DNA from: a virus | Length of the DNA stretch: 18,314 nucleotides | Reading direction: 5' to 3' (one strand) | Virus record (IMG/VR): IMGVR_UViG_3300031746_000251 | Shown here: one piece after another, positions 2,318 through 3,473 of the stretch | Numbering within the stretch: position 1 is the first letter of the stretch | Layout: each line of letters opens with the position of its first letter | Notes under the pieces: model-generated | Database searches by the model: none | What the model was told of the DNA's origin: nothing | What the model saw: only the letters and a program-made list of their open reading frames with translations | Program-made: the position numbers and the translations under genes

Positions 2318-2624
2318 GGTCGGCTCCTTTCAAGAGGCCCGAAATGAGCCTCACAGGCTCTTATGCCCAGCCCTGCTCTGGAATGGCTCTCTTCTCCTTC
2401 TTGAGGGCGCAAAGCAGGGTCAGGTGCGATGGCCATCACTATCGACCCAACCATGAAGGGGAGAGAGGGATGGATAGACAGTACACATCGAGCAGGCTTC
2501 TACACTTCGACACAGACTGCACGCATTAGCATCGTCGAGAGTGTATGGGGTGGGAGCAGCCCCGAGAGAGCCTCGTGATGAGGGGAGAGCAGGCTCAGCC
2601 AGTCGGAGAGCTCCTGCACAGGTA

Positions 2625-2672
2625 CCCCTCTATCCAAACAGCACCCCCTCTACCCAAACAGCACCCCCTCTG
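2625..2672. repeat. tandem direct repeat, 20-bp unit x ~2.4 (cccctctayccaaacagcac)
   Basis: Copies at 2625-2644 and 2645-2664 differ at one position; partial third copy 2665-2672; sits in low-GC3 non-coding island. Confidence 0.8.
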
Positions 2673-2930
2673 AGGTCAGTACGCCATTCATGGACCAACC
2701 AGGACCTGTTGGCCTGCTCATGTAGCTGCGCTGCCCCGAGAGTGGGCCATCTGGACCCTCTTGCTGGCGCCCTGAAGGCCAAGAGCAGGCCCATGAGCTG
2801 GCCGAAGAGCATTCCCTCTCAGCTGGCGCCATGAAGACCGACTGGGATGGCCTCATGCTCTCGCTAATCGCTAGGGCTATCGACTCGAACTCGTCTTCAT
2901 ATGGGAGGGGGACAGTGGTTACCTAGTTCT

Positions 2931-2966
2931 GGGGGGGCTTTACGAACGGAGGGGGTGGGGGAGGGG
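2931..2966 (+). repeat. G-rich tract with G-quadruplex potential (G7 ... GGAGGGGGTGGGGGAGGGG)
   Basis: Runs G7 (2931-2937), G5 (2951-2955), G5 (2957-2961), G4 (2963-2966) separated by 1-nt loops; also GGGAGGGGG at 2903-2911. Confidence 0.5.
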
Positions 2967-3078
2967 CACCGGCAGAAAGTTTTGGGAATGCTGGTGGAAT
3001 GGCCTACTGGCAAAGTGATGTGATGCGTGCAGGCGCGAAGAAAGGTCTGCTGGCAAGGTGGGAGGGACGGCTGGTAGG

Positions 3079-3384
3079 ATGGCTTTCATGGCCGACCAAG
3101 ACGACGAGCTGCCAGGAGGCTGTGTGGAGGTGCCGGAGGACCTCACGGTGGAGGTGCCGGGGGAAGGTCTGCCGGTCATCGTGTGGTGGCCGCCGGAGGG
3201 CCTGCGGGTAGCGCCGGCGGTCTGGACGGGGCGGCTGGTGGGAGACGTCTACGAGGTCGTGCCGGCCTCTCCCATCGCAGGGGAGGGGCATGTGGGCCCT
3301 TCGGTCATCACCATCACCTCTCCTGGCGCCGTCGGGCAGGGATGGCTCACTTCGGATGGCGGCCGCTTGGTGGGGTACCCGTAG
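3079..3384 (+). CDS. hypothetical protein (101 aa), lone plus-strand gene inside the non-coding island
   Basis: High GC3 across frame; GGAGGGA ~12 nt upstream of ATG 3079 (ORF track starts at upstream GTG 3058); overlapping 289-aa minus ORF 3004..3873 is R/P/G-rich and judged an antisense shadow. Confidence 0.45.
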   Translation: MAFMADQDDELPGGCVEVPEDLTVEVPGEGLPVIVWWPPEGLRVAPAVWTGRLVGDVYEVVPASPIAGEGHVGPSVITITSPGAVGQGWLTSDGGRLVGYP

Positions 3385-3473
3385 CTGGGTTCGCTCGTTC
3401 GCCTCTACTTGCGCCCTGAGGGCTAAGAAGAAGGTCCCGGGTAGGGGCCCTCCTCTCGTCAGACCTCTTCCGG

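What the first reader, a model, noticed from the sequence alone, without database searches (positions are those of the whole stretch)
2340..3470. About 1.1 kb non-coding island interrupting the minus-strand gene array
Codon-position GC bias disappears here, and the only credible ORF is a lone plus-strand 101-aa gene (3079-3384). The island contains tandem 20-bp repeats, a G-quadruplex-prone tract, and ends with a convergent junction at 3385-3473. In an otherwise overlap-packed locus, such a gap suggests one of several things: an origin or attachment site, a non-coding RNA, or the promoter region for the downstream operon starting at 2317. Because eukaryotic vaults contain dedicated small RNAs, an RNA gene here is worth testing.
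Basis: partly seen in the sequence, partly recalled or inferred. Interest (0 to 1): 0.5.

Follow-up and report, generated by a model that had tools for sequence, protein, structure and literature searches.

The report
Conserved structured RNA-like element in phage gap
The "empty" 1.1-kb gap in this giant-phage gene array holds a promoter, a small real gene, a terminator and a conserved, non-coding element of about 640 bases that looks like a previously undescribed large structured RNA.

Summary
Coding signal vanishes between 2318 and about 3040. The 20-nt tandem repeat, the G-runs, the small plus-strand ORF and the convergent junction are all present.

The window is one end of a ~196-kb jumbo-phage-like contig that encodes a major vault protein (MVP) homolog. 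The island resolves into four parts:
- A phage promoter motif for the next minus-strand gene (~2355-2395).
- A ~640-nt element (~2400-3035).
- A real small gene (3088-3384, +).
- A conserved terminator-like hairpin (~3420-3458).

The element recurs, once per genome, in three other phage contigs. It always lies in a gene-free gap between an array terminator and the next array promoter, although the flanking genes differ. It shows:
- No codon periodicity.
- Indels that are not multiples of three.
- Blocks identical across all four homologs (for example GGGGGACAGTGGTTACCT).
- Long-range helices with compensatory changes (z about 3 against refolded column shuffles).

It matches no Rfam family, and no tRNA gene lies nearby.

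Best reading (about 0.55): a new large structured phage ncRNA, probably plus-sense. The evidence is thin: four homologs, three of them close, and the strand and transcript ends are unproven. Origin and att readings find no support. The vault-RNA idea is untested.

The parts
2355..2395 (-). Promoter-like motif of the next array transcription unit (157-aa gene, start 2317, RBS AGGAG). The -10-like GCATAAGA lies at 2366->2359, with a -35-like region about 17 nt upstream.
   Evidence: The motif G[GC]ATAAG occurs twice in the window, both times on the minus strand. It occurs 11 times in L049, all on the array strand and 12-80 nt upstream of called genes. The consensus is gCaA-N17-G[GC]ATAAGg..Tag (with gene tables). 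It is conserved at the same edge of the island in all four homologs.
2400..3035 (+). Conserved non-coding structured element, the candidate large ncRNA. The plus strand is inferred, not shown.
   Evidence: The window aligns at 69% identity to gene-free gaps in L005/L009 and L010, and nhmmer finds a distant copy in L049 (E 4e-7). Substitutions show no codon periodicity and 9 of 10 indels are not multiples of 3. RNAalifold predicts 166 pairs, 32 of them with compensatory changes, against 14.5+-2.9 in pair shuffles and 1-7 in slid controls. Against refolded column shuffles, z is -3.5 for energy and +3.1 for compensatory pairs. There is no Rfam match.
2433..2473 (+). 5' hairpin (H4) outside the closing helix.
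   Evidence: It has 13 pairs, 3 with compensatory changes, and is predicted on both strands.
2517..2533 (+). 5' strand of the long-range closing helix (CUGCACGCAUUAGCAUC). It pairs with 3017-3032.
   Evidence: A 10-nt perfect inverted repeat 496 nt apart (I15) is invariant in the three close homologs, and its extension carries compensatory changes. L049 has a shorter candidate helix, CUCUCC/GGAGAG (duplexfold p=0.14).
2562..2594 (+). 5' strand of long-range helix H7/8. It contains the block CCGAGAGAGCCUC (GAGAGCCUC is invariant in all four) and pairs with 2850-2882.
   Evidence: H7/8 has 27 pairs, 4 with compensatory changes. In L049 the corresponding segments keep complementarity with a different sequence (GCAUGUGGG/CCCACAUGC; p=0.04).
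2618..2671 (+). The 20-nt tandem repeat (C-rich), a lineage-specific insertion in a variable linker of the element.
   Evidence: TRF reports 2.3 copies. The repeat is absent from L009 and L049 and only partly present in L010. It is complementary to the G-tract at 2931-2957 (I2).
2766..2830 (+). Helix H14 (GGCGCC/GGCGCC) enclosing an internal hairpin domain.
   Evidence: The helix is kept with different sequences: UGCCC/GGGCG in L010 and CCUCCCCCUGCGCC/GGCGCAGGGGAGAG in L049 (with p=0.007, and 109).
2850..2882 (+). 3' strand of helix H7/8. It includes the block UAGGGCUAU (2872-2880), invariant in all four.
2907..2924 (+). Invariant core GGGGGACAGUGGUUACCU, identical in all four homologs and the most conserved stretch of the locus.
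   Evidence: Each pattern scan found one match per phage contig.
3017..3032 (+). 3' strand of the closing helix (GAUGUGAUGCGUGCAG).
3088..3384 (+). Small protein-coding gene (98 aa). It has a conserved N-terminal ~35 residues and a lineage-specific C-terminus.
   Evidence: tblastn finds 74-78% identity over residues 1-35 to opposite-strand genes at the same position in L004 and L005. The codon alignment shows mostly synonymous third-position changes. The C-termini are unrelated. There is no Pfam, PHROG or NCBIfam match. L049 has no counterpart.
3420..3458 (-). Terminator-like hairpin of the upstream array unit, with the tail CUUCUUAGCCCUC. It sits in the convergent junction and may act in both directions.
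   Evidence: The array-sense fold has a 13-bp stem. The same hairpin-plus-CUUCUUAGCCC arrangement follows the array gene in L005, L004 and L049. The simple terminator scan did not flag it.

Best explanation
The island is a compact transcription-unit boundary in a jumbo-phage genome, and it houses a previously undescribed large structured non-coding RNA.

On the array (minus) strand, the upstream unit ends at a hairpin terminator (~3420-3458). The next unit starts at a phage promoter (~2355-2395). Between them lies a ~640-nt element (~2400-3035), most likely read from the opposite (plus) strand. It folds into a multi-domain structure:
- It is closed by a long-range helix, 2517-2533 with 3017-3032.
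- Inside is a second long-range helix, 2562-2594 with 2850-2882.
- It has several hairpin domains and a variable linker. In this phage the linker has expanded through a 20-nt tandem duplication.

Four sequence blocks are invariant even in the most distant homolog: GAGAGCCUC, ACCCCU, UAGGGCUAU and GGGGGACAGUGGUUACCU. I infer these are the functional surfaces, either tertiary contacts or binding sites for a protein or RNA partner.

In three of the four phages the RNA is followed on the same strand by one or two small ORFs, so it may be made as the 5' part of that transcript. In the fourth phage it stands alone.

Shown:
- Conservation without coding.
- Compensatory base-pair changes.
- A fixed position and orientation between a terminator and a promoter.
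- A single match per contig in every pattern scan.
- No match to any Rfam family.

Inferred:
- That the element is transcribed.
- The plus sense.
- The transcript ends.
- Any function.

By analogy with GOLLD and ROOL, I propose a stable scaffold RNA acting in trans during infection.
For: Context. The window is nearly identical to one end of a 196,070-bp contig. Relatives are IMG/VR viral contigs of 153 and 198 kb carrying Acb2/Tad1, Cpn10 and HNH genes.

Conservation. Window 2333-3032 aligns with the 785-bp gene-free gap of L005 (E 1e-63) and with L010. A distant copy lies in a 760-nt gap of L049 (E 4e-114 with the 4-sequence profile that already includes L049). The flanking genes differ: the window's 157-aa gene has no homolog in the protein collection, and the 78-aa gene of L004 and L005 is absent from the window.

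Non-coding. Substitutions are evenly spread over the three codon phases (p 0.59 and 0.61). Nine of ten indels are not multiples of 3. A neighbouring gene used as a control gives p 1e-6.

Structure.
- 32 compensatory pairs, against 14.5+-2.9 in shuffles and at most 7 in slid controls; 88% of cells are paired, against about 42%.
- Against refolded column shuffles, energy is -132.5 versus -113.7+-5.4, and compensatory pairs are 30 versus 19.8+-3.3.
- L049 was not used to derive the fold. It keeps 59% of consensus pairs, against 43-51% in slid controls, and it preserves helices H14 and H7/8 with different sequences.

Sense.
- The plus strand has the better consensus energy (-140 versus -123).
- It also has higher z-scores.
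- It is purine-rich (53-55%, G>C, A>T) in all four homologs.
- The array-strand terminator lies upstream of the element.
- A real plus-strand gene starts 55 nt downstream, and the spacer holds no conserved promoter.

No known family matches: Rfam gives nothing at gathering thresholds, at E<=10 for the island, or at E<=1 for the relatives.
Against: - There are only four homologs. Three are close: 69% identity to the window and 82% between L005/L009 and L010. Independent compensatory events are therefore few.
- With a fair null, the signal is only z about 3. One of 80 shuffles reached the observed compensatory count.
- The single-sequence MFE is no better than shuffles (z +0.45).
- Helices predicted on both strands are pure Watson-Crick, so covariation does not fix the strand. 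The minus strand also scores z -3.1 on energy.
- Covariance models of two sub-domains, built from the three close sequences, do not recover L049. The 3' domain fold and helix 20, which never varies, are therefore provisional.
- No promoter for the plus strand was identified.
- In L049 a promoter-like motif follows the terminator on the array strand, which would fit the opposite sense (and my reading of the sequence).
- There are no expression data.
Confidence: 0.55

Rival explanations
1. The element is a cis-acting 5' leader of the small plus-strand gene or genes. Under this reading the structured RNA is not a stand-alone ncRNA; it controls translation, stability or termination of the ORF that starts 55-120 nt after the closing helix.
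For: In the window, L004/L010 and L005/L009, the element is immediately followed on the same strand by conserved small ORFs, with an ATGGCC aligned in all three and real coding signal. The spacer holds no conserved promoter.
Against: In L049 the element stands alone, with no downstream ORF on that strand and no homolog of the small proteins. The ORF next to the element differs between phages: the 98-aa gene in the window, and the 78-aa gene in L004 and L005. About 640 nt with invariant blocks is far larger than known leaders or riboswitches, and no Rfam cis-regulatory family matches.
Confidence: 0.15
2. The element works as DNA. Under this reading it is a regulatory or architectural region, for example operator sites for a phage regulator, a partition or packaging site, or an insulator between transcription units. 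Conservation would then reflect protein-binding sites rather than RNA structure.
For: The element sits exactly between a terminator and a promoter. The invariant blocks could be protein-binding sites. A homolog of the Cys-rich 334-aa protein, which has only non-significant HTH-like matches (E about 0.2), lies 0.8-2.4 kb upstream in all four loci. Covariation does not resolve the strand.
Against: Long-range helices up to 500 nt apart with compensatory changes are not expected for duplex-DNA sites. The blocks are unique rather than repeated like iterons or parS arrays. The element lacks the features of an origin or DUE. Most phages that carry the 334-aa family lack the element.
Confidence: 0.15
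3. The element is an array-sense RNA. The same structured element would be transcribed on the minus strand, as the 3' end of the upstream unit by read-through or from its own promoter, ending just before the next promoter.
For: The minus-strand consensus fold is also better than shuffles (z -3.1). In L004, L005 and L049 a motif resembling the phage promoter follows the array terminator and points toward the element. All recognisable G[GC]ATAAG promoters are on the array strand.
Against: The minus strand has weaker energy and weaker compensatory z (1.7 versus 3.1). The array-sense RNA would be pyrimidine- and C-rich with long C-runs. In the window, a terminator hairpin and a real antisense gene lie between the nearest upstream array gene and the element.
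Confidence: 0.12

Closest known systems
GOLLD RNA (Rfam RF01998) and ROOL RNA (RF03087): large 'ornate' ncRNAs of phages and prophages
   Same: Both are phage-encoded, several hundred nucleotides long and multi-domain, with long-range helices. They combine highly conserved blocks with a variable or disordered linker. They encode no protein and have no known function. For GOLLD, the 3' region is described as universally conserved and the 5' region as less conserved (PMC12286853). Here too, the most conserved blocks lie in the 3' half.
   Different: The element shows no sequence or structure match to either covariance model. It is not next to tRNA genes, whereas GOLLD and ROOL often lie near tRNA islands (PMC12286853). 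It is found so far only in a small clade of high-GC jumbo-phage contigs. It sits antisense within a gene array, between a terminator and a promoter. Multimer or nanocage formation is untested.
Vault RNA (Rfam RF00006), the small RNA of eukaryotic vault particles
   Same: It is a non-coding RNA encoded in a genome that also encodes a major vault protein homolog (10433-13102; Pfam MVP_shoulder 1.9e-24). The element lies about 7.5 kb from that gene, and the order is conserved in three phages.
   Different: Vault RNAs are about 100-nt Pol III transcripts (general knowledge), whereas this element is about 640 nt with an unrelated fold. Rfam gives no match. No MVP was seen within the 21 kb of L049 that was fetched. 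Another MVP-encoding phage locus (L045) lacks the element within 10 kb. Physical association was not testable.
Self-splicing group I and group II introns of phages
   Same: They are similar in size and are closed by a long-range helix, with conserved core blocks and variable peripheral domains.
   Different: Rfam intron models give no match. The element does not interrupt any gene: its flanks are a promoter and a 5' UTR, and they differ between phages. GUGYG is not conserved at the 5' end. No intron ORF, reverse transcriptase or homing endonuclease lies inside it.

Membership tests
Generic structured ncRNA gene | Sequence conserved across genomes without protein-coding constraint | tested here: met
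   There are four homologs. Substitutions show no 3-periodicity, and 9 of 10 indels are not multiples of 3.
Generic structured ncRNA gene | Base-pair covariation above background | tested here: met
   32 compensatory pairs, against 14.5+-2.9. z is +3.1 for compensatory pairs and -3.5 for energy against refolded column shuffles. The signal is moderate and rests on only three sequences plus one distant one.
Generic structured ncRNA gene | Discrete, stable transcript with defined ends and strand | not testable with these tools
   No expression data were available. The strand was inferred from energy, purine content and context only.
GOLLD / ROOL / OLE / HEARO / raiA (Rfam large RNAs) | Match to the family covariance model | tested here: not met
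   cmscan against all 4227 Rfam families gave nothing at gathering thresholds, nothing relevant at E<=10 on 2200-3600, and nothing in L009, L010 or L049 at E<=1.
GOLLD / ROOL | Frequent location next to tRNA genes or tRNA islands in phages (PMC12286853) | tested here: not met
   ARAGORN found no tRNA in the window or in L004, L005, L009, L010, L049 or L071.
Vault RNA | Match to RF00006; about 100-nt Pol III transcript | tested here: not met
   Rfam gave no match. The element is about 640 nt.
Vault RNA | Physical association with MVP particles | not testable with these tools
   Only co-residence in the same genome is shown, about 7.5 kb apart.
Group I / group II intron | Match to intron covariance models, and interruption of a host gene with restorable exons | tested here: not met
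   Rfam gave no match. The flanks are a promoter and a small-gene 5' region, and they differ between phages.
Replication origin | DnaA boxes or iterons, an AT-rich unwinding element, and a skew or gene-orientation switch | tested here: not met
   There is no DnaA box in the island. GC is 0.56-0.63 throughout. Cumulative skew has no inflection, and genes on both sides keep the same orientation. The only repeat is a 2.3-copy, lineage-specific duplication.
Attachment (att) site / mobile insertion | Core repeated elsewhere, tRNA or integrase adjacency, terminal repeats with target duplication | tested here: not met
   Each pattern scan found one match per phage contig. There is no tRNA gene and no integrase adjacent to the island. 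The 23-nt imperfect inverted repeat at 2390-2412 / 3409-3431 (I3) coincides with the terminator tail and the GGGCGCAA block found at unit boundaries.
Promoter region of the downstream operon | Recurrent upstream motif at a fixed distance and orientation from gene starts | tested here: met
   GCATAAGA lies at 2366->2359, 42 nt upstream of the start at 2317. The same motif precedes 11 genes in L049 and others in L004, L005 and L010. It accounts for only about 40 nt of the island.

The most novel reading that the evidence does not exclude
The element is the RNA partner of the phage-encoded major vault protein. In that case it would be a viral analogue of the vault ribonucleoprotein, or an RNA that itself assembles into a multimeric cage like GOLLD and ROOL, packaged in or scaffolding MVP shells during infection. 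The evidence neither supports nor excludes this. The two genes are syntenic in three phages, but no physical or co-occurrence test was possible.
Probability: 0.06. Interest if true: 0.9.

Novelty: new variant of a known kind. Interest (0 to 1): 0.6.

Why it matters
Large, elaborately folded bacterial and phage RNAs are rare. GOLLD, ROOL and OLE turned out to form unexpected RNA-only assemblies (PMC12286853). A further family, unrelated in sequence and found in high-GC jumbo phages that also encode a vault-protein homolog, would add a new target for structural and functional work. It would also give a concrete, testable handle on whether prokaryotic or viral MVP homologs have an RNA partner.

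The analysis also yields practical annotation for this phage group: a promoter motif, a terminator signature, and a small gene with a conserved head and a swappable tail.

Tried and rejected
- Searches with the flanking proteins for homologous loci failed. The 157-aa and 115-aa proteins have no relatives in IMG/VR, and the 157-aa protein has none in the protein collection. blastn of 1391-4314 against GenBank phages and PLSDB plasmids found nothing.
- The single metagenome scan used GGTTACCTAG..GGGGTGGGG. It returned 34 chance hits and no homolog. In hindsight the pattern would also have missed L049-type sequences. Both genome-contig scans gave nothing or only chance hits. Extra IMG/VR scans found only the two known contigs plus one chance hit.
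- The 334-aa protein family is linked to the element in all four loci. It was used to fetch 56 IMG/VR loci and five further loci (L047, L048, L050, L053, L054). Apart from L049 and a re-find of the L010 contig (L071), none holds the element. Contigs of the MVP-71% lineage have no DNA on file.
- Covariance models of the 3' domain (R1) and the H14 domain (R2), built from the three close sequences, do not detect L049. MAFFT Q-INS-i was unavailable. L049 was therefore assessed by duplex tests and pair transfer.
- Strand assignment by G-U versus A-C counts fails, because each strand's own fold exploits wobble pairs and the shared helices are Watson-Crick only.
- Helices 1-3 of the first consensus (window 2357-2427) overlap the array promoter. 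I no longer count them as part of the RNA.
- G-quadruplex: one of the G-runs (2933-2937) is a C-run in L009 and L010, where it pairs with the next G-run as a hairpin. A conserved G4 is therefore unlikely.
- A diversity-generating retroelement reading of the variable ORF tail is rejected: there is no template-like repeat and no reverse transcriptase.
- A pseudogene reading is rejected.
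Full report
**Observation**

The window is 62% GC, and its genes show a strong GC3 signal. That signal collapses between about 2220 and 3060. A codon-usage log-odds model trained on the array genes is negative in all six frames over about 2300-3000. It is only weakly positive in the frame of the small plus-strand ORF.

- The 20-nt tandem repeat lies at 2625-2671 (2.3 copies).
- The G-runs lie at about 2903-2972.
- The plus-strand ORF is present, and the gene caller on the source contig placed it at 3088-3384.
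- The convergent junction at 3385-3473 is present.

The gene-free stretch is 2318-3087.

**Context**

The window equals a JGI contig of 18,314 bp. It is nearly identical to one end of an ENA contig of 196,070 bp. Almost none of its proteins has a Pfam or PHROG match. The exception is an 889-aa homolog of the major vault protein at 10433-13102 on the minus strand (MVP_shoulder 1.9e-24).

The closest MVP homologs (87-89% identity) lie on IMG/VR viral contigs of 153 and 198 kb. These contigs have the same gene order and carry Acb2/Tad1, Cpn10 and HNH genes. The setting is therefore a jumbo-phage genome. Bacterial MVP homologs at about 53% identity come from Kofleriaceae and other Myxococcota MAGs, which hints at the host. 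Viral MVPs have been reported before (bioRxiv 10.1101/2023.11.10.566534).

**The island is conserved as DNA while its neighbours are not**

Window 2333-3032 aligns at 69% identity (E 1e-63) with a 785-bp gene-free gap of L005/L009. It also aligns with the corresponding gap of the L004/L010 contig. A profile of these three finds a distant fourth copy in a 760-nt gene-free gap of a 129-kb Logan contig, L049 (E 4e-7; alignment).

The flanking genes differ between phages:
- The window's 157-aa gene has no homolog in the protein collection.
- In L010, the element abuts the ortholog of the gene that in the window lies three genes further on (window 142-210 matches L010 5497-5564 at 91%).
- The 78-aa gene that follows the element in L004 and L005 is missing from the window.

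Every pattern scan found the invariant core only once per phage contig.

**The element is non-coding**

Substitutions between the window and L009 or L010 are evenly spread over the three phases (p 0.59 and 0.61). Nine of ten indels are not multiples of three. A neighbouring gene used as a control shows the expected third-position excess (p 1e-6).

The alignment alternates between blocks of perfect identity and variable blocks. Four blocks survive even in L049: GAGAGCCUC, ACCCCU, UAGGGCUAU and GGGGGACAGUGGUUACCU. These blocks are more conserved than the adjacent coding DNA, which is 75-86% identical.

**Structure**

RNAalifold on the three close sequences predicts 166 pairs on the plus strand. 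Of these, 32 keep pairing through changes on both sides. Pair shuffles give 14.5+-2.9, and controls with partners slid by 1-3 columns give 1-7. Overall, 88% of cells are paired, against about 42% in the slid controls.

Those controls are lenient, because the fold was derived from the same sequences. I therefore also refolded 80 column-shuffled alignments of the element proper:
- Energy was -132.5, against -113.7+-5.4 (z -3.5).
- Compensatory pairs were 30, against 19.8+-3.3 (z +3.1, reached by one shuffle).

The robust helices are predicted on both strands. They are:
- A hairpin at 2433-2473.
- A closing helix, 2517-2533 with 3017-3032, which includes a 10-nt perfect inverted repeat 496 nt apart.
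- A second long-range helix, 2565-2594 with 2850-2882.
- Helix 2766-2771 with 2825-2830.
- Stems in the 3' domain.

L049 played no part in deriving the fold. It forms standard pairs at 59% of the transferred positions, against 43-51% for slid controls. It preserves complementarity with different sequences for the 2766/2830 helix (p 0.007) and the 2565/2882 helix (p 0.04).

The limits are real:
- The single-sequence MFE is unremarkable.
- Covariance models of two sub-domains built from the close trio fail to find L049.
- The stem around the invariant core never varies.

The 3' domain fold is therefore provisional.

The G-rich tract coincides with the most conserved core. One of its G-runs is a C-run in L009 and L010, where it forms a hairpin with the next G-run. 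A conserved quadruplex is therefore unlikely.

**Anatomy of the rest of the island**

*Promoter-like motif.* The motif gCaA-N17-G[GC]ATAAG(g)..Tag lies at 2359-2395 on the minus strand, 42 nt upstream of the start codon at 2317. In L049 the same motif occurs eleven times, always on the array strand and always 12-80 nt upstream of a called gene. It recurs in L004, L005 and L010 as well. I read it as the phage's promoter. It accounts for the left edge of the conserved region in all four loci.

*Terminator-like hairpin.* On the other side of the island, a hairpin with the tail CUUCUUAGCCC follows the upstream array gene in the window (~3420-3458, array sense), L005, L004 and L049.

*Small ORF.* It is a real gene. 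Its first ~35 codons are 74-78% identical at the protein level to opposite-strand genes at the same place in L004 and L005. The differences are mostly synonymous third-position changes. The C-terminal two-thirds are unrelated among the three phages. L049 has no such gene.

**Strand**

Covariation cannot decide the strand, because the shared helices are pure Watson-Crick. Five lines favour the plus strand:
- Better consensus energy (-140 versus -123).
- Better z-scores, especially for compensatory pairs (3.1 versus 1.7).
- Purine richness with G>C and A>T in all four homologs.
- The array terminator lying upstream of the element.
- A real plus-strand gene 55 nt downstream, with no conserved promoter in the spacer.

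Two points count against it. No plus-strand promoter was found. A promoter-like motif follows the terminator on the array strand in L004, L005 and L049. I put plus sense at about 0.6 among the RNA readings.

**What it is not**

- Known RNA families: nothing in Rfam 15 at gathering thresholds, at E<=10 on the island, or at E<=1 on the relatives. That covers GOLLD, ROOL, OLE, HEARO, raiA, introns, RNase P, tmRNA, Y RNA and vault RNA.
- tRNA genes: none in the window or the related loci.
- Origin features: no DnaA box in the island, no AT-rich stretch, no skew inflection and no change of gene orientation.
- att or mobile-element features: none were found.

**Comparison with known systems**

The element works most like the large ornate phage RNAs GOLLD and ROOL (PMC12286853). 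It shares with them a phage origin, a length of several hundred nucleotides, long-range helices, invariant blocks plus a variable linker, and an unknown function.

It is not a member of either family. The covariance models do not match, and the typical tRNA neighbourhood is absent.

The vault-RNA idea rests only on co-residence with an MVP gene about 7.5 kb away. Another MVP-encoding jumbo phage (L045) has no copy within 10 kb of its MVP, and no MVP was seen in the 21 kb fetched around the L049 copy.

**Verdict**

The island is a terminator-to-promoter boundary that houses a candidate new family of large structured RNA plus a small variable gene.

Confidence in the RNA reading is moderate (about 0.55 for a stand-alone or co-transcribed ncRNA, with further weight on the cis-leader and opposite-sense variants). 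The family has only four known members, and there are no expression data.

Noticed in passing
window 10433-13102 (-); L004 10001-12646; L005 10001-12640; L045 10001-12667: An 889-aa major vault protein homolog (Pfam MVP_shoulder and Vault_3) is encoded in jumbo-phage-like contigs of 150-200 kb. A second, non-syntenic MVP phage (L045, 202 kb) carries rIIB and Gp80 genes. Thousands of homologs exist, and many at about 53% identity come from Kofleriaceae and other Myxococcota MAGs. Viral MVPs were reported in a 2023 preprint (10.1101/2023.11.10.566534).
   Followed up: partly
window 2359-2395 (-) and 16692-16730 (-); L049 at 6665, 7992, 11211, 11803, 12725, 13997, 15829, 17151, 17997, 19794, 20840 (+): A shared promoter-like motif, gCaA-N17-G[GC]ATAAG(g)..Tag, always lies on the gene strand, 12-80 nt upstream of gene starts. 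It is often preceded by a CUUAC(G)CCUC / CUUCUUAGCCC terminator tail, giving tightly packed terminator-promoter modules.
   Followed up: partly
window 5496-5770 (-); L004 19900-20173; L005 17830-18099: A second gene-free, conserved region (78-84% identity) lies upstream of the 334-aa gene. It begins with a strong GC-rich hairpin (GGCGGGGAGGGGGAG...CUCCCCCUCCCUC) followed by hairpins. RNAalifold predicts 83 pairs, 16 with compensatory changes. It could be a structured 5' leader or another small RNA. The window has about 200 extra nt (5770-5969) not found in the relatives.
   Followed up: partly
window 3088-3384 (+); L004 22129-22482 (-); L005 20828-21151 (-): The small gene has a conserved N-terminal ~35 residues (..LPGGxVxVPxDLTVExPGEGLPV..), while its C-terminal two-thirds are completely unrelated in each phage. 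This suggests a modular protein with a swappable tail, or a recombination breakpoint inside the gene.
   Followed up: partly
window 4491-5495 (-); alignment A8: A 334-aa Cys/His-rich protein family (N-terminal HGTRxxYVxxKCRCxxCRxAN motif) has only non-significant HTH-like matches in its middle (E about 0.2). A member lies 0.8-2.4 kb upstream of the element in all four loci. The family is much wider, with 56 IMG/VR loci, nearly all without the element.
   Followed up: partly
window 142-2317 versus L010 5497-5564: Relative to the L010 phage, the window carries three extra genes (222-1388, 1391-1693, 1844-2317) between the element and the ortholog of the gene that starts at about 145. The promoter and 5' UTR (window 142-210) are 91% identical to the sequence that directly abuts the element in L010. 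This is a gene-cassette insertion or deletion at a promoter module.
   Followed up: partly
window 2390-2412 (+) and 3409-3431 (+): An imperfect 23-nt inverted repeat (74%) brackets the element plus the small ORF. Both arms combine a CUUCUU-type tail with a GGGCGCAA block. It may reflect shared boundary signals rather than a mobile element, but an invertible or cassette-like origin was not excluded.
   Followed up: partly
window 13894-14316 (-), 15858-16130 (-), 16693-17205 (-), 7451-8344 (-): These are the few other annotatable genes in the window: an HTH_3 / Cro-CI-like regulator, an ExoX-like C-terminal motif protein, a hemerythrin-domain protein, and a 297-aa protein matching a PHROG annotated as transposase (2.6e-20). 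The last keeps the same position in the relatives.
   Followed up: no
window 2931-2937 versus L009 and L010: The window and the distant L049 both have a G-run (GGGGGGG / GGGGGG) where L009 and L010 have GCCCCC pairing with the downstream GGGGGU. In the window, a C-rich tandem insertion (2625-2671) could supply an alternative partner. This may be a structural rearrangement or a long-range alternative pairing.
   Followed up: no
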